A stretch of 16,034 nucleotides of DNA, taken from positions 1 to 16,034 of the forward strand of contig JBCDBY010000076.1 in NCBI GenBank assembly GCA_039182715.1, in the 5' to 3' direction. Below the pieces are notes generated by a model, which did no database searches, was not told the origin of the DNA, and saw only the letters and a list, made by a program, of their open reading frames with translations. The translations under genes were made by a program, and so were the position numbers. The DNA is from Planctomycetota bacterium (GTDB taxonomy: Bacteria > Planctomycetota > PLA2). Below are positions 2,193 through 13,360 of this stretch, one piece after another. The first letter of the stretch is position 1; every line of letters starts with the position of its first letter.

Positions 2193-3131
2193 GTGCTGTG
2201 GGTCATCGTCAATCGGGGAAACCGAACGCCGTTGCGACGCATGCGCGCGTTTCGGGGCGGCGCGTTCGCGCGTCGCGTGCGACCGCTTCCGTTGGAGTCG
2301 ATTCGCCGCCGCCGGCGCCTGCCCGCGGGCGGCTACCTCTTCGTCGGTCACGAGACCTGGTCGTCGTCCGACCTGGCGCTCGGGGCCCGGCTCGCGCGCC
2401 GCATGCGGGAGGAAGGTGCGCCGGTCTGGAACGATCCGGGGCACGTGCTGCGCCGCTACGCGTTGCTGCGCATGCTGTTCGAGGACGGCACGAATTCGTT
2501 CAACGTCTACCGTGCCGACGAGCGGCGCGAGCCGACCCGGTGGCCGGTCTTCCTGCGCGGCGAACACGACCATCAGGGGCATCGCAGCGAGTTGCTGCCG
2601 GATCGGGCCGCCCTCGCCGCGGCGCTGCGCGAGGTCGAGGATCCGGCGAGCGCATTGATCGTCGAGTTCGTCGACACGCGCGGCGGCGACCGGCTCCACT
2701 CGAAGTGCGGCGCCTGCCGCGTCGGCGACGCGCTCTTCGCGCGCCACCGGATCTTCGGCGAGCACTGGATGGTCAAGGTGCAGGCCCACCCCGAGCCCGC
2801 GTGCGCGGAACGGGAACGGTCCTACGTGGCCTCGTTTCCCGATCGCGAGGCGGTCGCCTCCGTGTTCGAGCGGGCCGGCATCGACTACGGCCGCATCGAC
2901 TACACGCCGGTGGGGGATCGCATCGAGGTGTGGGAGATCAATACGAACCCGACGATCGTCGATCCGCCCACGCTCGCCATGAAGAGCCGCTGGGCCTTCA
3001 ACGAGCCGATCATCCACCGCCACTGCGATGCGCTGCTGGCGCTCGCCGAAACGGGCGAGGGCCGGAGCCCGGTGCCTTTGAAGGGCGTCGCGGGCGTTCG
3101 GCCGGGTTGGCGGTGGTGGGGGAAGCGTTGA
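2193..3131 (+). CDS. hypothetical protein with ATP-grasp-like motifs (TupA-like/sugar-transfer-associated ATP-grasp type)
   Basis: 312 aa from a GTG start. Motifs IVEFVDTRGGDRLHSKCGACRVGDALFARH and DYGRIDYTPVGDRIEVWEINTNPT resemble the central K/R and C-terminal E-x-N Mg-binding segments of ATP-grasp enzymes. Start codon uncertain; an alternative ATG lies at 2241. Confidence 0.55.
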   Translation: MLWVIVNRGNRTPLRRMRAFRGGAFARRVRPLPLESIRRRRRLPAGGYLFVGHETWSSSDLALGARLARRMREEGAPVWNDPGHVLRRYALLRMLFEDGTNSFNVYRADERREPTRWPVFLRGEHDHQGHRSELLPDRAALAAALREVEDPASALIVEFVDTRGGDRLHSKCGACRVGDALFARHRIFGEHWMVKVQAHPEPACAERERSYVASFPDREAVASVFERAGIDYGRIDYTPVGDRIEVWEINTNPTIVDPPTLAMKSRWAFNEPIIHRHCDALLALAETGEGRSPVPLKGVAGVRPGWRWWGKR

Positions 3132-3272
3132 ACGTTGAACGTTCGACGTTCAACGTTCGGGGTGGGAAGTCATCGGAGGTTTGGGTGGCTTGCACCGTGC
3201 CATCCAGGTTTTCGGCGGCTCCGATGACTTCCCGCGTTGAACGTCCCACGTCACACGTCGAACGTTCCACAT
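3122..3272. repeat. Heptamer-arm palindromic element, copy A
   Basis: Left arm 3129-3156 is TGAACGT TGAACGT TCGACGT TCAACGT, with the first unit containing the TGA stop of the upstream gene. The core is a perfect 15-bp inverted repeat, GGGAAGTCATCGGAG (3164-3178) and CTCCGATGACTTCCC (3219-3233), around a 40-nt loop. Right arm 3239-3266 is GAACGTC CCACGTC ACACGTC GAACGTT. It fills the whole gap between convergent stops (3131 and 3277). Confidence 0.7.
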
Positions 3273-3276
3273 TTCC

Positions 3277-4866
3277 CTAGGCCGCTTCCGGCTTCGGGTC
3301 GTCGTCCTTCTTCTTCTCGTTCCCGTCGTCGGCGCCCTTGAGCTTGCCGAAGTACTCCGGCATCTCGACGCCGCCGACGTCGCGCATCATCTGGAGCATG
3401 GGCGGCAGGGTGCCGCCGAGCCCGCGCAGGAAGTTCGCGGTGGCGTTGGAGCCGTTGCCGTCGCTGCCGCCGTCCCAGACGACGACCTTGTCGAACTTGA
3501 TGTTGCTGATCGCCTGCGCCGCGGTCTCCGACAGGTGGTCGAGGTGCTCGAGCATGAGCATCTGGAACGCCGCCTGCGCATCGCCGCACGCACTCACGAT
3601 CTCGGCGAAACCCTGACCCTTCTTCTGCAGGATCTCGAACTGGCCGCGCGCCTCCGCCTCGAGCCGGGCGTAGATCGCGGCCGCCTCGCCCTCCGCCTCG
3701 ATGCGGCGCTTGTCCGCCTCCGCCTCGGCGTCGACGACCATCTTCGCCTTCTCGGCGCGCGCAACCGCCTCGAGCGCGGCGCGCTGCTCCGCCTCGACCT
3801 TGGTCGCCTCGGCTTCGGCCGCCGTCGCCTGCGCCTCGTACTGCGCCTTGAGCACCTCCGCCTCGGCGACGCGCTTGCGCGTCTCGCCTCGCTGGTACGC
3901 CTCGGCGCGCTCGACCTGCAGCTCGGCATTGGCGCGCGCGACAATCGCCTGCGCCTCGTTCTCACCCTTGACCGCCTGCGCGTCCGCGTCCGCCACGGCG
4001 ACGCGCTTCTCGCGCTCCGCTTCGGCGACCTTCGCTTCCGTCTGGTTGCGGGCGGTCTCCTCGCCGACGCGCGCGTCGCGGTCGAGGTTGGCGACCTGGA
4101 TGACGCGCTCCTTCTCCGCCTCCTTCGTGCCGATGTCGCGGTTCTTCTGGGCGATCGCGACGTCGATGTCCTTCTCGCGGTTGGCGCGCGCGACGCCGAT
4201 CGCGCCCGACTTCTCCTGCTCCGCCACGTCGATCTCGGCCTGCTGGATGGCGGTCGCCGCCGCCTTGCGGCCGATCGCCTCGATGTAGCCGGAGTCGTCC
4301 GTGATGTCGGTGATGTTCACGTTGATCAGCGAAAGGCCGATCTTGCGCAGCTCCGGCTCGAGGGAGTCCTGGATCGAGTTGAGGAACGCGTCGCGGTCGC
4401 GGTTGATCTCCTCGATGCGCATGGATGCGATCACCTGGCGCAGCTGGCCGAAGATGATGTCGCGCGCCTGAGCCTCGATGTCGCCGGGACGCAGGTTGAG
4501 CAGGCGCACCGCGGCGTTGTTCATCGCGCCCGGGTCGGTGCCGACGGCGACCGTGAAGACCGAGGGCACGTTCACGCGGATGTTCTCCAGCGAGAGCGCG
4601 CCCTTGAGCGGAATCTCGATCTGCAGCGGTTCGAGGTCGAGGTAGGCGTAGTCCTGGATGAGCGGCCAGACGAATGCGCCGCCGCCGTGATGGCAGCGGG
4701 CGGCGTTCTGACCGCCGACCTTTCCGTAGACGACGAGCACCTTGTTGGACGGGCATCGCTTGTAGCGCTTGATCAGCAGGATCAGGAAGCTGAAGAACAG
4801 CAGCGCGAGAACGACGACCAACAGCACCGTCGGATCGGAGAGGTTGATCGCGAACAGGGACGGCAT
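3277..4866 (-). CDS. SPFH/band-7 flotillin-like protein (FloT/YuaG-like) with long EA-rich coiled coil
   Basis: 529 aa. N-terminal membrane hairpin (VLLVVVLALLFFSFLILLI), an SPFH domain, then an extended Ala/Glu coiled-coil region. An RBS AAGGAGAAG lies upstream of the ATG. Confidence 0.8.
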   Translation of the reverse strand: MPSLFAINLSDPTVLLVVVLALLFFSFLILLIKRYKRCPSNKVLVVYGKVGGQNAARCHHGGGAFVWPLIQDYAYLDLEPLQIEIPLKGALSLENIRVNVPSVFTVAVGTDPGAMNNAAVRLLNLRPGDIEAQARDIIFGQLRQVIASMRIEEINRDRDAFLNSIQDSLEPELRKIGLSLINVNITDITDDSGYIEAIGRKAAATAIQQAEIDVAEQEKSGAIGVARANREKDIDVAIAQKNRDIGTKEAEKERVIQVANLDRDARVGEETARNQTEAKVAEAEREKRVAVADADAQAVKGENEAQAIVARANAELQVERAEAYQRGETRKRVAEAEVLKAQYEAQATAAEAEATKVEAEQRAALEAVARAEKAKMVVDAEAEADKRRIEAEGEAAAIYARLEAEARGQFEILQKKGQGFAEIVSACGDAQAAFQMLMLEHLDHLSETAAQAISNIKFDKVVVWDGGSDGNGSNATANFLRGLGGTLPPMLQMMRDVGGVEMPEYFGKLKGADDGNEKKKDDDPKPEAA

Positions 4867-4872
4867 TTCTAT

Positions 4873-4881
4873 CTTCTCCTT
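4873..4881 (-). promoter_or_regulatory. Shine-Dalgarno for the flotillin gene (AAGGAGAAG on the minus strand)
   Basis: The reverse complement of cttctcctt is AAGGAGAAG, about 7-10 nt upstream of the ATG at 4866. It lies in the 26-bp nfeD-flotillin spacer. Confidence 0.4.
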
Positions 4882-4892
4882 CGTGGTTTGTT

Positions 4893-5453
4893 TCAGATGG
4901 CGATGACGTCGAGGGTCTGGTCGCCCTCGACCGACACGACGCGGATGCGCGCGCCGGACGGGATCTCGTCACCGTCGGTGCGCGCCGGGAACTCGAGCGA
5001 GCGCCCCTGGATCTCGATGGTCACCTTGCCCAGCCCCTCGTGCGCGCCGGGGATGCGCAGATAGCAGGTGCCGCTCTTGCCGACCGCGTTCTCGATGCGG
5101 ACGGTGCCGCTCGACTGCAGGTTGGCGAGCCCGCGCATGAGCAGGCCGACGGCGAACATGCCGGCGACACCGGACCCGGTCGCCACCGCGAGTCGTACGG
5201 GCATGGCGGGCGAGCGCTCCATCATGATGAGGCCGACCAGACCGAAGATCGCGGCGAAGGCGCAGAGCGCCTTGAACGAAAGCACGCCGAAGAAGACGTT
5301 GCCGTGGCCGACGGGATCGCCGTCGGTGTCGAGTTCCGGCCCGTCCATGTCGATGTCCGCTTCGCCGAACAGTCCCAGCGTCTGCAGGACGACCTGCACG
5401 AGCACGAGCACGCCGCCGCCGACGGCGCAGATGGTGTAGAGATTGGCTTCCAC
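4893..5453 (-). CDS. NfeD-family membrane protein (YuaF/YqiJ-like), partner of SPFH proteins
   Basis: 186 aa from a GTG start, with GAGGGAG 7 nt upstream. N-terminal TM segments plus a C-terminal OB-fold-like soluble part. Sits immediately upstream and co-directional with the flotillin gene, the classic nfeD-SPFH operon. Confidence 0.7.
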   Translation of the reverse strand: MEANLYTICAVGGGVLVLVQVVLQTLGLFGEADIDMDGPELDTDGDPVGHGNVFFGVLSFKALCAFAAIFGLVGLIMMERSPAMPVRLAVATGSGVAGMFAVGLLMRGLANLQSSGTVRIENAVGKSGTCYLRIPGAHEGLGKVTIEIQGRSLEFPARTDGDEIPSGARIRVVSVEGDQTLDVIAI

Positions 5454-5566
5454 TTCGTCTCCCTCACGTAATCGGTAACCTTTACTTCCGACAAACCGGC
5501 TCTATTCGCGGCTTTCCCCGCGCTTTTCCGCGCGCCCCGGCAAAGCGGGTATAAAGGTCTCACCGA
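5454..5566. promoter_or_regulatory. divergent promoter region between nfeD-flotillin operon and Kelch lipoprotein gene
   Basis: 113-bp gap between divergent start codons. It contains the AT-richer stretch ggtaacctttacttccgacaaa and a TATAAA hexamer (GGGTATAAAGG) about 13 bp upstream of the GTG at 5567. Confidence 0.35.
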
Positions 5567-7051
5567 GTGAGAGGACATGGCGGGGCGTTTCTCATCGCCC
5601 TCCTCGTCGCGTGCGGCGGCGGAGGTGGCGGAGGCGGTACGCCGTTTCGGGTGACGGGTTCGTCGCCGGAGACGGGCACCACCGAAGCGGACATCGACGT
5701 GCCGGTTCTGATCGTCTTCAATCGGCCGGCCGACGTCGCCACGCTCAACCAGGAGACGGTCCGCCTCGAGACGGCCGACGGTGTCCCGGTCGGCGCGCGG
5801 ATCCTCGTGCAGGGATTCAACTCCGCGGCGGTCAACGTCGAGCCGTTCGCGAATCTCGACGAGAACGTCGGCTATCGCGTCGTCCTCAGCGGGGTCCGCG
5901 CGACGGACGGCACCGCGCTGGCGACGCAGACCGTCTGTTTCGTGACGCGCAGCAGCACGCCGACGGTCCGGCCCGACCAGCTGCTCGATCTCGGCGACGC
6001 CCTGCAGGTTCCGCGCTTCCGCGGCGTCTCGATCCGGATGCGCGACGGCCGGACCGCGGTCATCGGCGGCTACTCCGACCCGCAGACCGCGACCGACACG
6101 ATCGAGATCTACGAGCCCACGACGCGCGGCTTCCGGCTGCTGACCGCGCGCCTCACCGTGCCGCGCGCCGAGTTCACGGTGACGCAGCTCAACGACCGGC
6201 GCATCGTCATCGCGGGCGGCGTCTCCGAGCCCGGCGGCGCGCCGCTGGCGTCGACCGACATCTTCGACCCGGGCAGCGAGACGGTCGCGCCCGGCCCGTC
6301 GATGAACATCGCGCGCCGCGAGCATGCCGCCAGCGGATTCTTCGGCAACGATCGCCTCGTCGTCTCGGGCGGCTTCGACGCCGACGGCGAAGCGCTGGAT
6401 AGCCTGGAGGAGCTGCGGGGGACGACCTGGGAGATCATGCCTCTCACGCTGCCCGAGCCGACCGCGCAGGGCATTCAGGTCGCGTCGCTCTTCGACCGCA
6501 TCTACTTCTCCGCCAGCAACCTGCTCGGCATCAGCGGCTACATCAATGCGGCGGGGGAGATGGTCACGCGTGCGGAGGGCGACATCCGCTTCCGCCCGGC
6601 GTACGCGACGCTCTCGAACGGCGACTTCCTGATCATCGGCGGCGATACACGTTCGATGGTCACCATCGACATGTCCTCGGGTTTGCCGTGGGGCGCCAGC
6701 AGCTTCCTCCGCGAACGGCGCGGCCTGCACTCCGTGACCGTGCGCGGCAACAACGGACGGCGCCTGCTGGTCGTCGGCGGCTTCAACCGCGCCGTGCAGG
6801 GAGAGCCTCCGCTCACGTCGATGGAGATCGTCGATGCGCTCGATCCGGGCCCGTTCGGCTTCCCCGACGCGGTCGCCTATCGTGTCGACCCGCTGCGTCT
6901 GCCCGTGCCGTTCGCCGGCCACGTCGGATTTAACGACAACAGCGGCCGCACGATCATCGCCGGCGGCGTCGGCGACGGCGTCGGTCCCCACTCGCGCCGC
7001 GCGATCATGATCGTCGACAACGCGAATTCGCTCACCGTCGACTGCGATTGA
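5567..7051 (+). CDS. Kelch-repeat beta-propeller lipoprotein with N-terminal Ig-like (SbsA/Big-like) domain
   Basis: 494 aa. Signal peptide with lipobox LLVAC followed by a Gly8 linker. Repeated Kelch-like blades (AVIGGYSD, IVIAGGVSEPGG, LVVSGGFDADG, FLIIGGDT, LLVVGGFN, TIIAGGVGDG). The TGA stop lies inside the first heptamer of repeat copy B. Confidence 0.7.
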   Translation: MRGHGGAFLIALLVACGGGGGGGGTPFRVTGSSPETGTTEADIDVPVLIVFNRPADVATLNQETVRLETADGVPVGARILVQGFNSAAVNVEPFANLDENVGYRVVLSGVRATDGTALATQTVCFVTRSSTPTVRPDQLLDLGDALQVPRFRGVSIRMRDGRTAVIGGYSDPQTATDTIEIYEPTTRGFRLLTARLTVPRAEFTVTQLNDRRIVIAGGVSEPGGAPLASTDIFDPGSETVAPGPSMNIARREHAASGFFGNDRLVVSGGFDADGEALDSLEELRGTTWEIMPLTLPEPTAQGIQVASLFDRIYFSASNLLGISGYINAAGEMVTRAEGDIRFRPAYATLSNGDFLIIGGDTRSMVTIDMSSGLPWGASSFLRERRGLHSVTVRGNNGRRLLVVGGFNRAVQGEPPLTSMEIVDALDPGPFGFPDAVAYRVDPLRLPVPFAGHVGFNDNSGRTIIAGGVGDGVGPHSRRAIMIVDNANSLTVDCD

Positions 7052-7249
7052 ACGTTCGATGTTCGACGTTCGACGCTCGACGTTCGACGCTCGACGCTCG
7101 ACGCTCGACGCTCGACGCTCGACGTCAGCGATGGAGAGGCATTGAGGGTGCGGGCGAAGGGACCAAGTTGGCGCGTTCTCGTCGCCGCATCCCTCCGTCG
7201 CCTTCCTTGGTGAGACGTCAAACGTCAAACGTCGAACGTCAAACGTTCA
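7049..7249. repeat. Heptamer-arm palindromic element, copy B (expanded left arm)
   Basis: Left arm 7049-7125 is 11 tandem 7-mers: TGAACGT, TCGATGT, then TCGACGT/TCGACGC units including 5 perfect consecutive TCGACGC. GC-rich core 7126-7212 with imperfect long-range complementarity (gcgatggagagg with ccctccgtcgc, cgaaggg with ccttcc). Right arm 7213-7247 is AGACGTC AAACGTC AAACGTC GAACGTC AAACGTT. Both flanking TGA stops (7049-7051 on plus, 7247-7249 on minus) lie inside the terminal units. Confidence 0.75.
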
Positions 7250-8371
7250 CAAGTCCCGCAGCGACGGATACTTGAACCGCATCCCGTCCTGGAACCAGCG
7301 CGGGTACTCGGACCAGCGGGCGGCGACGACTTCGATGTCCTCGCGGTCCGGGTCGACCTCGAACTGGCCGGGCACGCTCGCCTCCACCAGCAGGGGTACC
7401 TTCACCCATTCGCCGCGGCGCGAGGTGATCTTCCAGGCGCGGACGTCGTCGACCTCGTCCTCGGAGACGCGACGCTCGGCGACTTCGACGCCGGTCACGA
7501 CCTGGAAGAGGTAGGTGGAGATCGCGGCGATGTCGTCGGGGAAGGCGACGAAGGGCTCGTCGAACTCGTCCGCGAAGACGAACAGTCCCTCGTGGATCTT
7601 GCCGTAGACCTCCTCGCGCGGTTCCGCCTGGAAGAGCGCGAGGTCCTCCGCCTCGAGGCACTGCGGCAGCGTCTGCCGGTCGGTGCCGGTGAGCTCGACG
7701 CGCAGGTGGTAGCGCCAGATCGTGCGCGGGTAGTCCTCGCCGACCTCCTGCGGGACGGGCAGCGGCTCCGCCGCGAGCCGCTTCTCGCTCGGCTCGCGCG
7801 TCACCGTCAGCACGCGGCGTCCCAGCCGGCGCCGCTCGACGCGTCCCAGCCAGGCGAGGTTGAGTGCATTGACGGTGAAGTGGCAGGCGACGGCGGGCCA
7901 GAGCGAGCCGCTCTCCTCGCGCAGGACGCCCAGCGCGATGCCGGCGAGAAACGCGAAGATCGGATACCCCATCAGCGCGCGCGCCGGCACCGTGTGCAGG
8001 ATGCCGAAGAGAATCGCCGTGCCCATGAGGCCGAGGTGCGGCCAGAGCGCGCCGCGGAAGAAGAGCTCCTCGGCGAACCCGGAGAGGGCGGCGAGCAGCA
8101 GCGCCTGCGGGATCGTGATCGGGCCGAGCATGCGCGCCATCAGCATCGTGGCGCGCCGTACGGGCCGGAAGATCGCGTGGCCCGCGTGGCAGAGCGCGAC
8201 AATTGCCAATCCGATTGCGATGCCCTGCAGAATCGATTTCGTCGTCGCCGCCTGGTCGCCGAGCAGCAGTTCGGTGTGCCCGAAGACGCTCGCGTAGAGC
8301 ACCGATGCGACGATCACGCCCACGTAGAACGCGCTCGCGATCCGAATCAGTCGGTTGTTGCTCGTGCCCAC
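7247..8371 (-). CDS. CPBP-family (Abi/CAAX-type) intramembrane metalloprotease fused to a C-terminal soluble domain of unknown function
   Basis: All three CPBP motifs are present: FAEELFFRG, FGILH and HFTVNAL. A roughly 200-aa acidic, non-membrane C-terminal domain follows with no motif I recognise. The longest ORF runs to 8455 but would overlap the upstream gene by 77 bp. I place the start at the in-frame GTG at 8371, just after the upstream TAA and adjacent to AGGGG; the start is uncertain. Confidence 0.65.
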   Translation of the reverse strand: MGTSNNRLIRIASAFYVGVIVASVLYASVFGHTELLLGDQAATTKSILQGIAIGLAIVALCHAGHAIFRPVRRATMLMARMLGPITIPQALLLAALSGFAEELFFRGALWPHLGLMGTAILFGILHTVPARALMGYPIFAFLAGIALGVLREESGSLWPAVACHFTVNALNLAWLGRVERRRLGRRVLTVTREPSEKRLAAEPLPVPQEVGEDYPRTIWRYHLRVELTGTDRQTLPQCLEAEDLALFQAEPREEVYGKIHEGLFVFADEFDEPFVAFPDDIAAISTYLFQVVTGVEVAERRVSEDEVDDVRAWKITSRRGEWVKVPLLVEASVPGQFEVDPDREDIEVVAARWSEYPRWFQDGMRFKYPSLRDL

Positions 8372-8378
8372 GACCCCT

Positions 8379-9356
8379 TTACCTTCGCATGGACCAGACG
8401 AGCGGGTTCGGTGAGTTCTGCATGGACTCGAAGGAGTCGCGATCGACCAGTCCACGCCACCCTTCCGCGATCCCGATCTGCGCCACGATGGAGCCGAGCG
8501 AGTTGCCGGGGCCGGGGAGGTAGAGCAGATCGGGCGCGAATTCGCGGAGCGCCGTGAAGACCGACGCGGAGAAGTCGTAGGTCTCGGTCACCTGCGCCCC
8601 GAGCGTGTAATTGCGTAGCGCGGCGGGATCCGCGACGAACGGCGTATGCGTGTGCCCCGTACCGTCGATCAGCGGCGTGGCCGGCGCGCGCCAGTCGAGG
8701 GGCCCCAACTGCGCGGCGGCCTTGTCCGCAACGCCGGCGAGCAGCGGCGTGTGATACGGGCCGTGCTGCGCGAGCCGGATCGGGTAGCGACCCTTGCCGA
8801 GTTCCGCCGGGGGTAGATGGAAGTCGTCGAGTGCCTCGTCGGTGCCGGCGATGACGGCGAACCCGCCGAGCTTGATCGACACGAAGACGCCTTCCTCTTC
8901 GCAGTACAGGACCTGTCCGAAGCGGTCGTCGTCGAGCCGCCAGTCCTCGCCCACAATCGGATAGAGCACCTGGCCCCCGGCCGGCGCCTCCATCTGGAGC
9001 TGCGCCATCTCCTGGACGAGGCGGAATCCGTCGTCGAACGAGAGCGCCCCCGCGACCGTCAGCGCCGTGTACCAGCCCATGGAGTTGCCGGCCACCGCGA
9101 CGATCTCGTGTTCGGCGGCGGCGCGCTCCGCGTCGAGCAGGCTGTGCAGCCAGATGAGCGGGGAGACGTGGTCGGGACGCAGCTGCACGGCGGCGTCCCA
9201 CGGCGCGTCCCGGTCGAGCGAGACCAGCGACGGCAGGCCGCGCGCGGCGCGCAGCTCGTCGGCGCGCCGGACGAGCGGGTGGTTCGGATCGAGCGCGCCG
9301 CGCGTCTGCTTCGTGTAGGAGCCGCGACCGGGGCAGATCAGCACGATGCGGCTCAT
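8379..9356 (-). CDS. FabD-like acyltransferase (malonyl-CoA:ACP transacylase fold; nucleophile motif GNSMG)
   Basis: 326 aa from the ATG at 9356, overlapping the upstream TGA in ATGA. N-terminal CPGRGSY parallels the MCAT FPGQGSQ motif, and GNSMGWYTAL parallels GHSxGEYxAL. The 5'-extended ORF to 9869 is a low-complexity Arg-rich shadow overlapping the E1 gene. Confidence 0.7.
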   Translation of the reverse strand: MSRIVLICPGRGSYTKQTRGALDPNHPLVRRADELRAARGLPSLVSLDRDAPWDAAVQLRPDHVSPLIWLHSLLDAERAAAEHEIVAVAGNSMGWYTALTVAGALSFDDGFRLVQEMAQLQMEAPAGGQVLYPIVGEDWRLDDDRFGQVLYCEEEGVFVSIKLGGFAVIAGTDEALDDFHLPPAELGKGRYPIRLAQHGPYHTPLLAGVADKAAAQLGPLDWRAPATPLIDGTGHTHTPFVADPAALRNYTLGAQVTETYDFSASVFTALREFAPDLLYLPGPGNSLGSIVAQIGIAEGWRGLVDRDSFESMQNSPNPLVWSMRR

Positions 9357-11614
9357 GCGGTCACCTCGCGTGCGGCCGCCTCGATCTCCTCTTCGGAGAC
9401 GAGCACCATGGGGGCGGTGGGGCCGAGCGGGATGAACGTGTCGGCGCTCCGCACGGACCGCAGCTTGCCGTCGTATCCGCGCTCCGCCAGTCGGGCAAGG
9501 ATCGCGTCGGCCACGCCGCCGCTCGCGCGGCACTCGTCGACGACGACGATCGCCGCGGCGGTGCTCGCCTCGCGCTCGATCGCTTCCCACGGCAGGGGGT
9601 TGAGCCACCGCAAGTCGAGGACGCGCGCGTCGAGCCCGGCGCGCCGCGCCACGCGGCGACACATGCGCACGCCGTTGGCGTAGCTGATGAAGAGCAGCTT
9701 GCCTTCGCCGTGCACGCCGGCCTCGCCCGGTAGCAGCGCTTCGCCCTGTGCCGGGTAGTCGCTCAGCCAGCCCTGGTCGCCCGGCTCGTGCAGGTCCTTC
9801 TCGTGGTACAGCGCAATCGGCTCGAGGAACGCGATGACGCGGCCGTGCTCTTTCGCCATCGTCAGGCATCCGCGCAGCATGCGCACGGCGTCCTCGCCGC
9901 GTGACGGTGTCGCGACCACCATGCCGGGAATCTCGCGCAGCGCGGCGATCGCGTTGTCGTTGTGGAAGTGGCCGCCGAACCCGCGCTGGTAGGCAAACGA
10001 GGCAATGCGCACGACCATCGGATTGGTGAACTGGCCCACCGAGAAGAACGAGAGCGAGCTCGCCTCGCCGCGCAGCTGGTCGATCGCGTTGTGCAGGTAG
10101 GCGAGGTACTGGATCTCCGGGATGGGCAGCAGGCCCGCCTGCGCCGCGCCCTGCGCCACGCCGAGAATCGTGGTCTCGTCGAGCAGCGTGTCGAAGACGC
10201 GCGCCTGGCCGAATCGCTCCTGCAGCCCGGCCGTCACGTAGTAGACGCCGCCCTTGCGGCCGACGTCTTCGCCGAAGACGACGATCTCGGGGCGGCGGAG
10301 CATCTCGTCGGCCAGCGCCGCGTTGATGTGCGCCCCGAGCGTGCGCTTGGTCGGCGCGGTCGCGGCCTCCGGCAGTCGCCCGCGCCAGAGTTCCGCGCGC
10401 GCATCCACCTCGATCGGCTCACTCGCCTTGCTTCGACAGTCCGGGTCCAAGTCGAACGACAGCGGGATCATGACCCCCTCGCGGGAGGCGAGGTGACCAC
10501 GGCCGGCGGCTTCCGGCTCGCAGGCTTCGACGCGTGTCCGCGTGGTGCGCAGGAGCGTGGCGATCGCGCCCGGCGTCGCCGCTCCGCGCTCGATCAGGAA
10601 GCGCGCATTGCGCAGCAGCGGGTCCTGGTCCTCGACCGCCTCGATCTCCGGCAGCTCTCGGTAGGTCGTCTCCACGTCGGAGCCCGCGTGGCCCCAGAGG
10701 CGCACCGTGCGGAGGTGGAGGAAGACGGGGCCTTTGGTGGCGCGGCAGGTCTCGATGGCGAGACGCGTCGTCTCCCAGATCTCGTCCAGCTCGCCGTCCG
10801 CCTCGAAGTAGCGCAGGTGCCGCAGGCCGCTGAACGCGTCGTTGATCCAGCGGCGCGGCGTGCGCACCGAGATGCCGATGCCGTTGTCCTCGCAGACGAA
10901 GAGCACCGGCACCGGGTTGCCGCGGCGATGCGCGTAGCGGGCGGCGTTGATGCCGGCCAACGCGGTGGCGTGGTTCGCGGACGCGTCTCCGAAGCTGCAG
11001 CAGACGAGCGCGTCGTGCGGGTGGTCGTGGTCGATGCCCAGTCGCCGCGCGCGCCCGAGAGCGAACGCCATCCCGACCGCCTTGGGCAGGTGGGACGCGA
11101 TCGTGCTGGTCTGCGGCGGCACGCCGAGCGGTCGGCTTCCCCAGACCTTGTGGCGGCCCTGCGCGATGGGGTCGTCGCGACTCGCGCACAGCGAAAGCAG
11201 CGTATCGAACGTCGGCGTTACCGACCCCAAGTGGCGCGACCGCGCCATCATGAACCCGCCACTGCGGTAGTGCAGCAGCGCGGGGTCCGTCACGCGCAGC
11301 TGCGTGCCGAGCACGGCGTTCTGTTCGTGGCCGGCGCTGGCGATCGTGTAGTAGCCGACGCCGCGCGCCTTGAGCCGTCGCGCCGCCATGTCGAGCTGGC
11401 GGCTCAGCACCTGGTCCTCGAAGAGCGCGCGCGCCTGCGCCGCGGTCAGGGAGCTGCCGGGCCGCACCGGTTCGTGCGAGGCCAGCAGGTGCGCGGCGGG
11501 CCGCGCGGTGGCGAGGTAGTTCTCGAGGTTCTGCTCGACGACGGTGACGCGGTCCGGGGGCACGCGGCAATTATGCCGGGTGCGTCGAACAGTCGGCCGT
11601 ATAACCGGGGGCAT
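9353..11614 (-). CDS. TPP-dependent 2-oxoacid dehydrogenase E1 component, fused alpha and beta subunits
   Basis: 753 aa. The alpha half has TPP-binding GDASANH ... VLFVCEDNGIGIS. The beta half has a transketolase-like pyrimidine-binding region, EIVVFGEDVG...ILGVAQGAAQAGLLPIPEIQY, and a C-terminal domain. The TGA stop overlaps the acyltransferase ATG. Exact start uncertain: the ATG at 11614 overlaps the divergent YtoQ ATG within GCATGC. Confidence 0.8.
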   Translation of the reverse strand: MPPVIRPTVRRTRHNCRVPPDRVTVVEQNLENYLATARPAAHLLASHEPVRPGSSLTAAQARALFEDQVLSRQLDMAARRLKARGVGYYTIASAGHEQNAVLGTQLRVTDPALLHYRSGGFMMARSRHLGSVTPTFDTLLSLCASRDDPIAQGRHKVWGSRPLGVPPQTSTIASHLPKAVGMAFALGRARRLGIDHDHPHDALVCCSFGDASANHATALAGINAARYAHRRGNPVPVLFVCEDNGIGISVRTPRRWINDAFSGLRHLRYFEADGELDEIWETTRLAIETCRATKGPVFLHLRTVRLWGHAGSDVETTYRELPEIEAVEDQDPLLRNARFLIERGAATPGAIATLLRTTRTRVEACEPEAAGRGHLASREGVMIPLSFDLDPDCRSKASEPIEVDARAELWRGRLPEAATAPTKRTLGAHINAALADEMLRRPEIVVFGEDVGRKGGVYYVTAGLQERFGQARVFDTLLDETTILGVAQGAAQAGLLPIPEIQYLAYLHNAIDQLRGEASSLSFFSVGQFTNPMVVRIASFAYQRGFGGHFHNDNAIAALREIPGMVVATPSRGEDAVRMLRGCLTMAKEHGRVIAFLEPIALYHEKDLHEPGDQGWLSDYPAQGEALLPGEAGVHGEGKLLFISYANGVRMCRRVARRAGLDARVLDLRWLNPLPWEAIEREASTAAAIVVVDECRASGGVADAILARLAERGYDGKLRSVRSADTFIPLGPTAPMVLVSEEEIEAAAREVTA

Positions 11615-12056
11615 GCAGTGGCACGTCTACCTCTCCGGCGAGATCCACACCGACTGGCGCGATCGCATCGCGGAGGGCATTCGCGCCCGCGATCTGCCGG
11701 TCGTCCTGAGCGCGCCCGTGACCGACCATCCCGCCAGCGACGACTGTGGCGTGTCGATTCTTGGCGCGGAGGAGAAGGGCTTCTGGAAGGACAACAAGGG
11801 CGCCGGGGTCAACGCGATCCGCACGCGCACCCTGATCGAGAAGGCGGACGTCGTCGTCGTCCGATTCGGCGACAAGTACCGCCAGTGGAACGCCGCCTTC
11901 GACGCCGGCTACGCGTCGGCGCTCGGCAAGTCGATCATCACGCTGCACGGCGAGGAACTCACGCACGCCCTCAAGGAGGTCGACCGCTCGGCGCTTGCCG
12001 TCGCCTCGGAGCCGGAGCAGGTGGTGGACATCCTCGAGTACGTCATCCGGAAGTAG
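11613..12056 (+). CDS. YtoQ-family protein (nucleoside 2-deoxyribosyltransferase-like fold)
   Basis: 148 aa. MQWHVYLSGEIHTDWR ... VVVVRFGDKYRQWNAAFDAGYA matches my memory of the Bacillus YtoQ family, including size. The upstream in-frame GTG at 11544 would overlap the E1 gene and was not used. Confidence 0.6.
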   Translation: MQWHVYLSGEIHTDWRDRIAEGIRARDLPVVLSAPVTDHPASDDCGVSILGAEEKGFWKDNKGAGVNAIRTRTLIEKADVVVVRFGDKYRQWNAAFDAGYASALGKSIITLHGEELTHALKEVDRSALAVASEPEQVVDILEYVIRK

Positions 12057-12061
12057 GTGCG

Positions 12062-12201
12062 TGGGACGTTCGACGTTCGACGTTGGACGTTCGCGGCAGG
12101 AAGTCGGGCGGAGGGCTTCCTGGTTCTGGAACCCCGCGACCGGGGACGACTTCCGATCGCAGCCGAAAGTACGTCGAACGTCCAACGTCCAACGTGCGAA
12201 G
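12062..12201. repeat. Heptamer-arm palindromic element, copy C
   Basis: Left arm 12062-12096 is tGGGACGT TCGACGT TCGACGT TGGACGT TCGcgg. The core 12097-12168 carries nested inverted repeats: caggaag with cttcctg, ggttc with gaacc, ccccg with cgggg, and GGAAGTCG (12100-12107) with CGACTTCC (12147-12154). Right arm 12169-12196 is GTACGTC GAACGTC CAACGTC CAACGTG. It fills the gap between convergent stops (12056 and 12202). Confidence 0.7.
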
Positions 12202-12660
12202 TCAGGCCTCGGTGCCTTCGAAACTCCTCAGCCGGTGCATGTGCCCCATCAGCGAGGCGGTGCCGGCCATGCCGAGCCAGGCGAAGAAGTTCATGTTGCC
12301 GGAGAGGATCAGGCAGCCGGTGGCGATGATCGGATAGCTGATGCTTCCTGCTCTCGCCCGTGCGGCGACGACGCCGGTGATCGCGCCGCACGCGGCGGCC
12401 CAGACGAAGATCACGGGGCTGCGGAAGATCCCGAAGATGTGAATGAAGACGAAGCAGGCGACCATCTCGAAGACGAAGACCTTGTACGTGTAGTTCCGCC
12501 GCTCCGCGCGCTCGGAGCCCTGGCCCTCCTCCCGCCGCCACGCCTCGCGCATCTCCTCCTGTACGTGCGCCGGGAGCCCCTGGAAGAACTCGTTCTCCTC
12601 CCGCGGATCGTGGATCCGGTCCTCGGGGATCTCGTGCAGCGCCTTCTCCATGCATTCCAT
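12202..12660 (-). CDS. small two-TM membrane protein with charged N-terminal region
   Basis: The minus-strand frame is confirmed by codon-position GC: 20/20 G/C at third positions over 12241-12300, versus 10/20 for the overlapping plus-strand ORF. Start placed at the ATG at 12660 (MECMEKALHEIPEDRIHDP...). The next ATG at 12651 is equally possible. Upstream of 12660 the codon bias becomes ambiguous, so the 222-aa ORF to 12870 is not supported. Confidence 0.5.
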   Translation of the reverse strand: MECMEKALHEIPEDRIHDPREENEFFQGLPAHVQEEMREAWRREEGQGSERAERRNYTYKVFVFEMVACFVFIHIFGIFRSPVIFVWAAACGAITGVVAARARAGSISYPIIATGCLILSGNMNFFAWLGMAGTASLMGHMHRLRSFEGTEA

Positions 12661-12690
12661 ATCGGCATCCGGACGGCCGATAAGAAACCC

Positions 12691-13128
12691 GTGGATGAAC
12701 GGGTCGAACAGCTCCGGCAGGAGTGGCTCGCCGAACAGGCGCGCCGCGACGTCGCGGACGGGAAGCGGCAGCAGCGCAACCGCCGCAACGCCGTGCTCGC
12801 TGGGGCGATGATCGGCATCGTCTCGACGATGGTCACCGCGCAGGTGACGCGCCGCGCGATCTTCTGGCACTCGTTCCTGCTCGAGGCGCTCTTCGGCGCG
12901 ATCGCCGGCTACGTGCTCGTCCGCCGCGGCGCCGACCCGCTCAACGGCGTCGTCTGCTTCAGCGTCGCCTACTTCGCCGCCTGGCTGCTCCGCGCGCTCG
13001 GCCTCGACCCGTCCGTGCTCTTCGCCGCCGGCGACCTGCGCGGCGCGCTGATGATCCAGGGCAACTTCACGAGTCTCTGTCTCACCGTGGCCTGCGGCGC
13101 CGCGGTGGGGCAGGTCATGCGGGATTAG
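12691..13128 (+). CDS. small multi-TM membrane protein
   Basis: The plus-strand frame has 20/20 G/C at third positions over 12961-13020, and a hydrophobic C-terminus (AIFWHSFLLEALFGAIAGYVLV...VVCFSVAYFAAWLL). Start tentatively the GTG at 12691. An alternative ATG at 12808 is preceded by GGGG. The 5' part of the 377-aa ORF from 11995 is antisense to real genes and to repeat C and was rejected. Confidence 0.45.
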   Translation: MDERVEQLRQEWLAEQARRDVADGKRQQRNRRNAVLAGAMIGIVSTMVTAQVTRRAIFWHSFLLEALFGAIAGYVLVRRGADPLNGVVCFSVAYFAAWLLRALGLDPSVLFAAGDLRGALMIQGNFTSLCLTVACGAAVGQVMRD

Positions 13129-13360
13129 GCGGGGCCAGGAGCGAGGGGCCAGGGGCAGCGAGTGTCTTGTTGCCCACCTTCATTCACGAGTGCGCGCAGA
13201 CGCCCGTCGCTGCGCCACGCGGTCGCACTCCCGTCCACCGAAAGCTCTCCGCGAACTCCGCGGATCCTCCGCGCTCTCCGCGCTTAAACCCGACCGCAGC
13301 CGGAGGCCAACGACTCCGGCCCAGCAATCCGAGGCTGAGGGAGTCCTCCTCGCCCGCGAC

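What the first reader, a model, noticed from the sequence alone, without database searches (positions are those of the whole stretch)
3122..12201. Undescribed family of heptamer-arm palindromic elements filling three convergent-gene junctions
Three non-coding elements (3122-3272, 7049-7249, 12062-12201) share one architecture. The left arm is a tandem array of 7-nt units T-NN-ACGT (4, 11 and about 5 units). The middle is a GC-rich core with strong inverted repeats. The right arm is the inverted array NN-ACGT-Y (4 to 5 units). ACGT is its own reverse complement, so the arms are mutually complementary apart from the variable dinucleotides. Each element can therefore fold into a hairpin of more than 100 nt capped by the core. 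All three lie exactly between convergent stop codons. In several cases the stop codon sits inside the terminal heptamer (TGAACGT). The fourth convergent junction in the window, 13129-13360, lacks the element, so it is not simply what terminators look like here. Three copies in 16 kb implies a high genomic copy number. I do not recognise the motif as a described REP/BIME/MITE, attC or riboswitch class. The 7-bp period does not match helical phase, which favours an RNA or cruciform-level function over a phased protein-binding array. The function may be bidirectional termination, mRNA 3'-end protection, or a target for a dedicated REP-associated transposase or binding protein.
Basis: seen in the sequence. 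Interest (0 to 1): 0.85.

Follow-up and report, generated by a model that had tools for sequence, protein, structure and literature searches.

The report
Heptamer-stem hairpin elements, IVS-like
Three real, related non-coding hairpin elements whose arms are runs of 7-base units were gained between convergent genes in one Planctomycetota lineage. The same kind of stem brackets the "23S rRNA intervening-sequence protein" genes in many phyla, which links two old puzzles: bacterial heptamer repeats and rRNA intervening sequences.

Summary
At 3122-3268, 7049-7249 and 12057-12198, inverted arrays of T-NN-ACGT heptamers flank a GC-rich inner hairpin. Each element exactly fills a convergent stop-to-stop junction.

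The three copies are one family. They share a box, GGAAGNC(N2-3)CGGAGG, 8 nt inside one arm (3 hits against 0.01 expected). Seven syntenic loci (five distinct relatives; 79-86% flotillin identity), each holding one to three of these junctions, have 0-45 nt (or overlapping genes) and no heptamers wherever the gene pair is kept, so the elements are lineage-specific gains.

The architecture is not unprecedented. Period-7 arrays in inverted pairs are common across many phyla, and Xanthomonas GGGAATC pairs are published.

New here: this kind of stem brackets PF05635 four-helix-bundle ("23S rRNA IVS protein", Avd-like) genes:
- every such gene found in about 1.5 Mb of fetched loci;
- 10 of 12 unselected plasmid genes;
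- a genuine Azospirillum 23S rRNA IVS.

In addition, 9 of 11 heptamer arrays in 150 kb of control sequence lie next to such genes.

The best reading is that these are cargo-less IVS-like RNA stem-loops, probably near-neutral. They likely form or protect 3' ends and are plausible RNase III substrates. They are not canonical terminators (no U-tract). No link to a REP-associated transposase was found, and the convergent-junction preference does not hold in other genomes. How they spread is unknown.

The parts
3122..3159 (+). E1 outer arm: a degenerate unit GAAGCGT, then TGAACGT TGAACGT TCGACGT TCAACGT, then TCG. The TGA at 3129-3131 is the stop codon of the 2193-3131(+) gene.
3160..3233 (+). E1 GC-rich inner hairpin (core). 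The family box GGAAGTCATCGGAGG lies at 3165-3179 and pairs with CTCCGATGACTTCC.
3234..3268 (+). E1 second arm (degenerate): GCGT-TGA, ACGT-CCC, ACGT-CAC, ACGT-CGA, ACGT-TCC. The flotillin stop codon (CTA on the + strand) follows at 3277-3279.
7049..7125 (+). E2 long arm: 11 heptamers (TGAACGT, TCGATGT, then TCGACGT/TCGACGC). The TGA at 7049-7051 is the stop codon of the Kelch/Big_5 gene.
7126..7214 (-). E2 core. The family box GGAAGGCGACGGAGG lies on the minus strand at 7192-7206, so E2 is inverted relative to E1 and E3.
7215..7249 (+). E2 short arm: ACGTCAA ACGTCAA ACGTCGA ACGTCAA ACGTTCA. TCA at 7247-7249 is the TGA stop of the CAAX-protease gene on the minus strand.
12057..12093 (+). E3 first arm: GTGCGTG GGACGT TCGACGT TCGACGT TGGACGT TCG. 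It starts 1 nt after the YtoQ stop (TAG, 12054-12056).
12094..12170 (+). E3 core hairpin, with the family box GGAAGTCGGGCGGAGG at 12099-12114.
12171..12198 (+). E3 second arm: ACGTCGA ACGTCCA ACGTCCA ACGTGCG. The stop codon (TCA) of the 12202-12705(-) gene follows at 12202-12204.

Best explanation
The three loci are copies of one lineage-specific family of non-coding foldback elements. Each has two inverted arrays of NN-AACGT heptamers around a 74-89-nt GC-rich inner hairpin. That hairpin carries a shared GGAAGNC(N2-3)CGGAGG box.

The elements were gained in this Planctomycetota lineage at three convergent 3' junctions. Those junctions are only 0-45 nt long in relatives.

They belong to a widespread class of inverted heptanucleotide-repeat stems. 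This is the same kind of stem that brackets PF05635 genes (the '23S rRNA intervening-sequence protein', also called S23p, a four-helix-bundle protein related to Avd). It is also the kind that forms the RNase III-cut stem of true 23S rRNA intervening sequences.

I read the window copies as cargo-less, IVS-like stem-loops. The proposed workings are:
- Both convergent transcripts must run into the element, because nothing else lies between the stop codons.
- The RNA folds into a long imperfect duplex.
- That duplex is where the 3' ends are made or protected, by exonuclease block and probably RNase III cleavage. It thereby separates the two genes.
- The arms lengthen and shorten by slipped-strand mispairing.
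- The arms are kept mirror-complementary by selection on pairing or by templated repair.

The elements are probably near-neutral passengers that survive where a hairpin does no harm.

Shown: the anatomy, the family relationship, the gain relative to other lineages, the class membership, and the association of the class with PF05635 genes and IVSs.

Inferred: the RNA-level role, RNase III processing, descent from (or dependence on) PF05635 cassettes, and the mode of spread.
For: Reality and family:
- Arms and folds are far beyond chance.
- The box occurs 3 times in the window, only in the elements and at the same 8-nt offset from an arm. Expectation is 0.01, and there are 0 matches in 125 other loci.

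Gain:
- Seven syntenic loci from relatives (five distinct sequences, since L122-L124 carry the same protein) keep the gene order, except that L121 has extra genes between CAAX and Kelch and L128 lacks the convergent partner of flotillin.
- Wherever one of these three gene pairs is kept, the junction is 0-45 nt or the genes overlap, and no locus has any ACGT-type heptamer array.
- Stop-codon positions are conserved to within one codon.

Class:
- Period 7 dominates the tandem repeats in those loci (420 TRF rows; the next period has 135).
- Same-unit arrays are inverted 61 times against 28 direct, mostly 3-100 nt apart.

Link to PF05635 and IVS:
- All PF05635 genes found in the fetched loci are bracketed by AACGT-type arrays. 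These are the L040/L100/L129/L130/L131 ortholog group, L071, L119, L158, L163 (two genes; the first runs off the locus end, so only its downstream array is seen) and L176.
- 116 of 120 homologs carry the translated array 'TSNV[QE]R' upstream of the domain.
- L049 (Planctomycetota) has only a 20-aa remnant of the gene left between the arms, which still fold.
- L163 holds gene-bearing and empty pairs with the same unit.
- Unselected test: 10 of 12 plasmid-borne PF05635 genes are bracketed by inverted arrays, 9 of period 7 and 1 of period 8.
- One of these is a genuine 23S rRNA IVS in Azospirillum.
- In 150 kb of control plasmid sequence, 9 of 11 period-7 arrays lie next to PF05635-family genes.
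- Arms co-vary: the unit type differs between orthologous loci but is mirrored in both arms of each locus.

RNA level:
- The box-sense strand folds better in all three copies and has 29 against 13 G.U pairs.

Literature:
- The Coxiella IVS stem contains tandem GACAGAT heptamers that vary in number between strains, and RNase III cuts at the first repeat (PMC4990558).
- Xanthomonas has 70-75 inverted GGGAATC pairs per genome (PMC4692102). One array overlaps the start codon of XCC0516, the crystallised S23p pentamer.
Against: - No PF05635 gene and no detectable remnant of one lies in the window or its cores. The link between these three copies and the gene-bearing cassettes therefore rests on shared architecture and arm type, not on homology of the cores.
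- No further copy with the same box was found in the metagenome scan, so there are only three copies to judge from.
- The G.U asymmetry (29 against 13) is modest. Part of it may simply reflect a G-rich strand inherited from one ancestor.
- No expression, 3'-end or RNase III data exist for this organism.
- Arm complementarity is imperfect (76-92%). In E1 the second arm has lost the flanking A/T rule, which fits decay as well as it fits function.
- The mechanism of insertion is unknown. No target-site duplication is visible.
Confidence: 0.5

Rival explanations
1. A MITE- or REPIN-like DNA element. On this view it is a non-autonomous transposon whose inverted heptamer arms are the ends recognised by a transposase encoded elsewhere in the genome (RAYT/IS200-like or other). 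It would insert preferentially, or survive only, in convergent 3' junctions.
For: - Presence in the window against absence in the relatives' loci that keep the same junctions.
- Three copies share arms and a core box.
- One copy is inverted relative to the others.
- The size, 140-200 nt, is typical of MITEs.
Against: - No target-site duplication is visible at any copy.
- The arms are variable-length tandem arrays (4 to 11 units), not fixed terminal repeats.
- There is no GTAG-type REP head.
- The window holds no transposase: its genes are all syntenic with relatives.
- The same arm architecture surrounds a PF05635 gene that has stayed at one locus through species with 78-100% protein identity. 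That is not how transposon ends behave.
- The unit sequence changes freely between orthologous loci, which argues against a sequence-specific transposase site.
Confidence: 0.2
2. A bidirectional transcription terminator selected as such. On this view the hairpin stops RNA polymerase coming from both convergent genes, and the heptamer build is only the way the stem grew.
For: - The elements lie exactly between convergent stops, with no other terminator in the gaps.
- The hairpins are very stable on both strands.
Against: - No T/U run follows the stem on either strand.
- A relative uses a canonical terminator with a T-run at one of these junctions (L122, GGGGCCGGCGCAAGCCGGCCCTTTTTATTT).
- Relatives manage with gaps of 0-7 nt, so no such device is required.
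- In other genomes the same kind of element lies mostly between co-directional genes, and even upstream of start codons.
Confidence: 0.15
3. Independent in-situ growth. On this view each junction separately expanded a heptamer microsatellite by polymerase slippage and copied it to the other side by template switching. There would be no common ancestor element and no function.
For: - Heptamers are the commonest long simple-sequence repeat in prokaryotes, and a slippage origin has been proposed (Mrazek 2007, as cited in PMC4679880 and PMC4692102).
- Unit number is unequal between arms (11 against 5 in E2).
- A relative has an unrelated (CCAGTCG)x3 at the same junction (L125).
Against: - All three copies share the same unit type and the same 15-16-nt box at the same offset (0.01 expected).
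- The 74-89-nt cores have no counterpart in the relatives' 0-45-nt junctions.
Confidence: 0.1
4. A DNA-level protein-binding array or cruciform. For example, it could be a binding platform for a nucleoid protein, or for a PF05635 pentamer acting on double-stranded DNA.
For: - A fixed 5-nt core is repeated at a strict 7-bp period, and three units equal two helical turns.
- The class is associated with a nucleic-acid-binding protein family.
Against: - The unit sequence is free to change between orthologous loci as long as the arms stay mirrored.
- There is a strand asymmetry in G.U pairs.
- True IVS stems of the same build act as RNA (PMC4990558).
Confidence: 0.05

Closest known systems
23S rRNA intervening sequences (IVS of helix 25/45; Salmonella, Leptospira, Coxiella, Azospirillum), with or without an S23p/PF05635 ORF
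   Same: - A long stem is formed by terminal inverted repeats around a loop that may or may not carry a gene.
- The stem is built of tandem heptamers (Coxiella GACAGAT, PMC4990558; Azospirillum L136).
- Unit number varies between strains.
- Presence among relatives is sporadic.
- The stem acts as RNA and is cut by RNase III (literature).
   Different: - The window copies are not in rRNA (no Rfam hit); they lie between protein genes.
- They carry no ORF.
- Their unit is NN-AACGT.
- RNase III cleavage is not shown for them.
Xanthomonas GGGAATC, (GGGANTN)n, heptameric repeats (Rehm et al. 2015, PMC4692102)
   Same: - The heptamer has five fixed and two variable positions.
- About four units is the commonest length.
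- There are 70-75 inverted 'convergent' pairs per genome that could form stem-loops.
- The repeats are intergenic.
- Length and sequence vary between close relatives.
- One array abuts the S23p gene XCC0516.
   Different: - The Xanthomonas unit is G-rich and quadruplex-forming, whereas the window's core ACGT is self-complementary.
- It occurs in Gammaproteobacteria.
- No conserved inner core is described.
- No preference for convergent junctions is reported.
Cyanobacterial STRR heptamers and Beggiatoaceae/Bacteroidetes TAACTGA direct repeats (MacGregor 2015, PMC4679880)
   Same: - Tandem heptanucleotide arrays fill intergenic space.
- The phylogenetic distribution is scattered.
- The function is unknown.
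   Different: - Those repeats are mostly direct arrays just upstream of start codons.
- Only one inverted set is reported in the Beggiatoa genome.
- The units are different.
REP/BIME/REPIN elements
   Same: - Extragenic, hairpin-forming and multi-copy.
- Often at the 3' ends of genes, where they protect mRNA.
- REPINs consist of two inverted repeats around a spacer.
   Different: - REPs are single 20-40-nt palindromes with a conserved GT[AG]G head and a partner RAYT gene.
- Here the arms are tandem 7-nt arrays of variable length, with no such head and no RAYT found.
MITEs and foldback elements
   Same: - Short and non-coding, with inverted ends.
- Presence/absence polymorphism.
- Eukaryotic foldback elements likewise have inverted arms made of short tandem repeats (my own knowledge).
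   Different: - No target-site duplication.
- No related IS or transposase.
- The arm sequence is not fixed.
Rho-independent terminators
   Same: A GC-rich hairpin directly after stop codons.
   Different: - No U-tract.
- The stem is five to ten times longer.
- The same build also occurs upstream of genes in other genomes.

Membership tests
Heptanucleotide long simple-sequence repeats (STRR-type arrays) | Head-to-tail repeats of a 7-nt unit, three or more copies, in intergenic DNA | tested here: met
   TRF finds period 7 at all six arms, with 2.7-10.6 copies. All arms are intergenic.
Inverted heptamer-repeat pairs (as described for Xanthomonas GGGAATC) | Two arrays of the same unit on opposite strands in close proximity, able to form a stem-loop | tested here: met
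   Inverted arms are 24-59 nt long and 76-92% complementary. Folds have z scores of -3.3 to -8.3.
Inverted heptamer-repeat pairs (as described for Xanthomonas GGGAATC) | The G-rich unit GGGANTN with quadruplex potential | tested here: not met
   The unit here is T-NN-ACGT.
23S rRNA intervening sequence (IVS) | Inserted in helix 25 or 45 of a 23S rRNA gene | tested here: not met
   No rRNA or any other Rfam match in the window. The flanking sequences are protein genes.
23S rRNA intervening sequence (IVS) | Terminal inverted repeats forming a long stem, built of tandem heptamers in Coxiella and Azospirillum | tested here: met
   Window. Comparison stems: L136 and PMC4990558.
23S rRNA intervening sequence (IVS) | Excision of the stem-loop from the transcript by RNase III | not testable with these tools
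   This needs RNA 3'/5'-end mapping or an in-vitro cleavage assay.
PF05635 (S23p / four-helix-bundle) cassette | A PF05635 ORF between the two arms | tested here: not met
   The cores are 74-89 nt. No profile hit beyond the translated heptamers was found.
REP/BIME/REPIN | A 20-40-nt imperfect palindrome with a conserved 5' GT[AG]G head | tested here: not met
   The arms are tandem heptamers, and no GTAG/GTGG head sits at the element ends.
REP/BIME/REPIN | A RAYT (TnpA-REP, Y1 transposase) gene in the genome | not testable with these tools
   Only this 16-kb contig of the MAG is reachable. The contig holds no such gene.
MITE | Fixed terminal inverted repeats flanked by a target-site duplication | tested here: not met
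   No direct repeat is visible at the borders of any of the three copies, and arm length varies from 4 to 11 units.
Rho-independent terminator | A GC-rich stem-loop followed by a U-tract | tested here: not met
   The terminator scan finds none at the elements, and no T-run follows on either strand.
Known RNA families (Rfam 15) | A match to any covariance model at E<=1 | tested here: not met
   0 matches in the whole window.

The most novel reading that the evidence does not exclude
On this reading, inverted heptamer-repeat stems are the cis-acting partner of PF05635 four-helix-bundle proteins (S23p, Avd-like pentamers). Together they would form a widespread, horizontally spreading 'IVS-type' cassette system that lodges in rRNA helices, within operons and in 3' junctions.

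The many gene-less heptamer hairpins, including the three in this window, would be its non-autonomous copies. They would be maintained or moved in trans by the protein, which would read the arrays in a 7-nt register.

If true, this would explain at once three things: why heptamers are the dominant long repeat in many bacterial phyla, what IVS ORFs are for, and where IVSs come from.
Probability: 0.25. Interest if true: 0.85.

Novelty: new variant of a known kind. Interest (0 to 1): 0.6.

Why it matters
Two puzzles have stood for decades.

First, heptanucleotide arrays have been known since 1990 in cyanobacteria, and since 2007 as the commonest long simple repeat in prokaryotes. No function or origin has been established for them.

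Second, 23S rRNA intervening sequences and their S23p ORFs have been equally unexplained since about 1990.

The window's elements are a clean, recently gained example of the gene-less form. Following them showed that the same kind of stem systematically brackets S23p/Avd-like genes in at least six bacterial phyla, on plasmids, on viral contigs and in a true IVS.

This turns two descriptive oddities into one testable system. The open questions become:
- Does the pentameric protein bind the 7-nt arrays?
- Does RNase III cut the stems?
- Do the empty copies depend on the gene-bearing ones?

For annotation, it also flags that gene callers translate these arrays as N-terminal extensions ('TSNVQRPTSNVQR').

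Tried and rejected
- Rfam at E<=1 on the whole window: nothing.
- Sigma-70 promoter and terminator scan: no site at the elements.
- Fetching more of the same genome: the window is the entire contig, and neither the CAAX protease nor the flotillin protein is in the contig index. Copy number and genome-wide orientation could therefore not be measured.
- Metagenome scan for arm plus core box: one hit (L126). It lies in a region with no arrays and no similarity to the window, so it is a chance match.
- Box search in 125 other loci: none. The core is private to this lineage.
- Search for a remnant of the four-helix-bundle gene in the three cores and in junction 4: only weak hits (<=9.5 bits). These are attributable to translated heptamers in a profile that still contained such flanks. 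blastn-short found only 8-10-nt chance words.
- An 8-nt identity (CCGATGAC) between the E1 core and the L049 remnant was judged to be at chance level.
- Convergent-junction specificity as a class property: rejected (gene calls were crude).
- A fixed polarity of the arms (ACGT-T arm first): rejected. Both orders are equally common in other genomes (8 against 8).
- The idea that the top 120 Chthoniobacterales homologs are a multi-copy mobile family: rejected. Every look-up (L129-L131), like L040 and L100, returned the same conserved locus.
- Whole-cassette fold of L130: the array-to-array stem appears in the minimum-energy structure, but the overall z score is not significant (-0.5). This is expected for a 500-nt coding RNA.

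Full report
**1. Observation**

- Tandem Repeats Finder reports period-7 arrays at exactly the six arms: 3126-3158, 3241-3259, 7052-7125, 7215-7246, 12065-12093 and 12171-12195.
- A four-unit pattern, ACGTTNNACGTTNNACGTTNNACGT, occurs five times in the window and never in 200 shuffles.
- All eleven matches to ACGTNNNACGTNNNACGT lie inside the three elements.
- The arms are inverted repeats of 24-59 nt, 76-92% complementary.
- Each element folds into one long hairpin on either strand. On the + strand the energies are -97.1, -104.0 and -77.4 kcal/mol (z -8.3, -3.3, -3.4). On the - strand they are -81.6, -116.4 and -75.6 (z -7.1, -5.9, -4.6).

**2. Gene context**

Pfam and synteny give this map:

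- ~300-aa protein 2193-3131(+) >< flotillin 3277-4866(-)
- Kelch/Big_5 5567-7051(+) >< CAAX protease 7247-8455(-)
- YtoQ 11613-12056(+) >< 12202-12705(-)
- 12763-13128(+) >< 13361-15085(-)

The elements fill the first three convergent gaps from stop codon to stop codon. Three of the six stops (3129-3131, 7049-7051, 7247-7249) are the TGA of a terminal TGAACGT unit.

The fourth gap has no heptamer hairpin and no significant fold (z -1.8).

**3. The three copies are one family**

Aligned with E2 reverse-complemented, all three show the same box eight bases after the last ACGT of one arm:

- GGAAGTCATCGGAGG in E1
- GGAAGTCGGGCGGAGG in E3
- GGAAGGCGACGGAGG in E2, on the minus strand

The pattern GGAAGNC(N2-3)CGGAGG occurs three times in the window, only there, against 0.01 expected. 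It is absent from 125 other loci. The elements therefore share an ancestor and have a polarity, with E2 inverted.

The strand that carries the box folds better as RNA in all three copies, by 15.5, 12.4 and 1.8 kcal/mol. It also forms 29 G.U pairs against 13 on the other strand. This is a modest sign that pairing matters on one strand, that is, in RNA.

**4. They are recent gains**

The window is a complete 16,034-bp contig of a Planctomycetota MAG. Relatives with 79-86% identical flotillin keep the gene order. These are L121, L122-124 (one sequence seen in three samples), L125, L127 and L128. Two depart from it locally: L121 has extra genes between CAAX and Kelch, and L128 has a co-directional gene after flotillin.

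Wherever the same convergent pairs are kept, the junctions are 0-45 nt or overlap. None of these loci contains a single ACGT-type heptamer array.

Stop-codon positions are conserved to within one codon. For example, CAAX ends ...LREL* in L121 and L125...LRELE* in L122, and ...LRDL* here. One relative has an ordinary terminator with a T-run at the flotillin junction.

The elements themselves have no T-run, and the terminator scan finds nothing at them.

I could not obtain more of this genome. A metagenome scan for arm plus box returned only a chance hit.

**5. The wider class**

The hits spread over Chloroflexota, Acidobacteriota, Verrucomicrobiota, Bacteroidota, Planctomycetota, Nitrospirota, Desulfobacterota and others.

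- In these loci period 7 is by far the commonest tandem-repeat period (420 rows; the next is period 9 with 135), with many different units.
- Same-unit arrays within 1.5 kb are inverted 61 times and direct 28 times, mostly 3-100 nt apart.
- 27 of the 120 loci have two AACGT arrays within 300 nt, and both arm orders are equally common.
- With crude gene calls, inverted pairs lie in 22 tandem, 7 convergent and 3 divergent junctions. The background is 375, 100 and 101.

The class therefore avoids pure promoter regions but is not specific to convergent junctions.

Published precedents exist:

- Xanthomonas (GGGANTN)n heptamers, with 70-75 inverted pairs per genome (PMC4692102).
- Beggiatoaceae and cyanobacterial TAACTGA arrays, together with the general excess of heptamers noted by Mrazek (PMC4679880).

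**6. A recurrent gene partner**

Between some inverted AACGT arrays lies a small gene of Pfam family PF05635. This is the '23S rRNA intervening-sequence protein', a four-helix-bundle protein and the family of DGR Avd.

Cases found:

- One conserved Chthoniobacterales locus (L040, L100, L129-131).
- A Nitrospirota locus (L071).
- A Bacteroidota locus (L119).
- Four genes on three viral contigs (L158, L163, L176). One L163 gene runs off the locus end, so only its downstream array is visible.
- A Planctomycetota locus (L049) where only 20 codons of the gene remain between arms that still fold.

Every PF05635 gene detected in about 1.5 Mb of fetched sequence is bracketed in this way. Of the 120 closest homologs of the Chthoniobacterales protein, 116 carry 'TSNV[QE]R', the translation of (CCAACGT/CGAACGT)n, about 15 residues before the domain.

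These homologs are orthologs at one locus, not a multi-copy family. The arrays have therefore persisted through long vertical descent. The unit type differs between species, but the predominant unit is mirrored in the two arms of a locus. In L130 even a single odd unit appears at the mirrored position.

**7. Unselected test**

Those loci were chosen for having AACGT arrays, so I repeated the test on an unselected sample. I took PF05635 genes from PLSDB plasmids by protein search and fetched twelve loci.

- Ten are directly bracketed by inverted short tandem arrays, nine of period 7 and one of period 8.
- Each has its own unit, for example CAGGAGT/TGACTCC, GGGTGTA/CTACACC, AGGTGAC/CTGTCAC and GGTTCAA/AACCTTG.
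- One of the ten, on Azospirillum lipoferum plasmid AZO_p2, is a genuine 23S rRNA IVS (LSU rRNA model, 1123 bits). Its stem is made of GAGGACG-type heptamers.

As a control I took three 50-kb plasmid stretches. They hold eleven period-7 arrays of at least 21 nt, and nine of these lie next to PF05635-family genes. One lies between a DGR reverse transcriptase and its avd gene.

The literature agrees in two places:

- The Coxiella IVS has tandem GACAGAT heptamers of strain-variable number, and RNase III cuts at the first repeat (PMC4990558).
- Xanthomonas array #15 overlaps the start codon of XCC0516, the S23p pentamer of PDB 2gsc.

I found no paper that states the general association. The library is incomplete, however.

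**8. Interpretation**

The window's elements are best filed as a new, lineage-private sequence family. They belong within a class of inverted heptamer-repeat stems that includes the stems of IVSs and of PF05635 cassettes.

They carry no gene and no detectable remnant of one. Loss of the cargo is nevertheless seen directly in another Planctomycetota genome (L049). Gene-bearing and empty pairs with the same unit also coexist on one contig (L163).

The most likely working is at the RNA level. Both convergent transcripts must enter the element and fold into a long imperfect duplex, and that duplex defines or protects the 3' ends. By analogy with IVS stems, it is probably an RNase III substrate.

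- Shown: the structure, the common ancestry, the gain, the class and its gene partner.
- Inferred: the RNA role, the RNase III step, any dependence on PF05635 proteins, and how copies spread.

Rival readings are scored lower, for reasons given in their entries. They are a transposase-driven MITE or REPIN, a selected bidirectional terminator, independent microsatellite growth, and a DNA-level binding array.

**9. Verdict**

- The element is a new variant of a known kind.
- Interest is moderate to high. This is less for the three copies themselves than because they lead to a general and testable link between bacterial heptamer repeats, IVSs and the S23p/Avd protein family.

Noticed in passing
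window 13129-13360: The fourth convergent junction is 232 nt here but 45 nt (L122) or 7 nt (L125) in relatives. It holds a weak (GGGGCCA)-type 7-nt repeat at 13131-13156 and CTCCGCG-type repeats (TRF period 9) at 13244-13284. It has no significant hairpin (z -1.8). It may be a different or decayed insertion.
   Followed up: partly
L125 7645-7679: A relative has an unrelated heptamer array, (CCAGTCG)x3, in the CAAX/Kelch junction, the junction that E2 occupies in the window.
   Followed up: no
L133 (Pseudanabaena pPg_01), L139/L144 (Anabaena 90 pANA02), L142 (Picosynechococcus PCC 7003 plasmid): PF05635 four-helix-bundle genes with their heptamer arrays sit inside CRISPR-cas operons, co-oriented with them. 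The arrangements are cas6-4HB-cas4 (twice) and cas10-4HB-cmr3.
   Followed up: no
L144 10106-10127: Outside the four-helix-bundle locus, the only period-7 array on 50 kb of Anabaena 90 pANA02 is (TAATTGG)x3. It lies between the DGR reverse transcriptase gene and its avd gene.
   Followed up: no
P0121-P0240; L129 3001-3513, L130 10001-10492: Gene callers start the Chthoniobacterales four-helix-bundle gene about 50 codons upstream. The heptamer array is therefore annotated as protein ('TSNVQRPTSNVQR'). A conserved 'GRVREEPG' stretch lies before it. Whether this extension is translated is open.
   Followed up: partly
L163 2162-2410 and 7824-8121: On a viral contig (IMGVR_UViG_3300042816_000144), empty inverted TTGAACG pairs enclose heptamer arrays of a second unit: GTCCTAT-type arrays in both, and an inverted (ATAGGAC)n/(GTCCTAT)n pair in 7824-8121. 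The same contig holds two tandem four-helix-bundle genes; TTGAACG arrays bracket the second and follow the first, whose start runs off the locus.
   Followed up: partly
L121 2270-7504: In GCA_054873895.1, a block of rhodanese, sulfur-transport and multihaem cytochrome genes lies between the CAAX protease and the Kelch gene. These two genes are neighbours in the window and in the other relatives.
   Followed up: no
L003 7682-7740 and 7880-7925; L112 999-1185: In two Holophagae genomes, AACGT arrays are preceded by the same GGAGCACGATGAAGAAAG leader (an RBS plus ATG, giving 'MKKVER*'). They are followed by a CCCTCCC...GGAGCGAGGTGGGCG core, which suggests another private family with its own core.
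   Followed up: no
L049 695-715: As in the window, the stop codon of the upstream gene is the TGA of the first TGAACGT unit of the array (…ATCCATTGAACGTCC).
   Followed up: no
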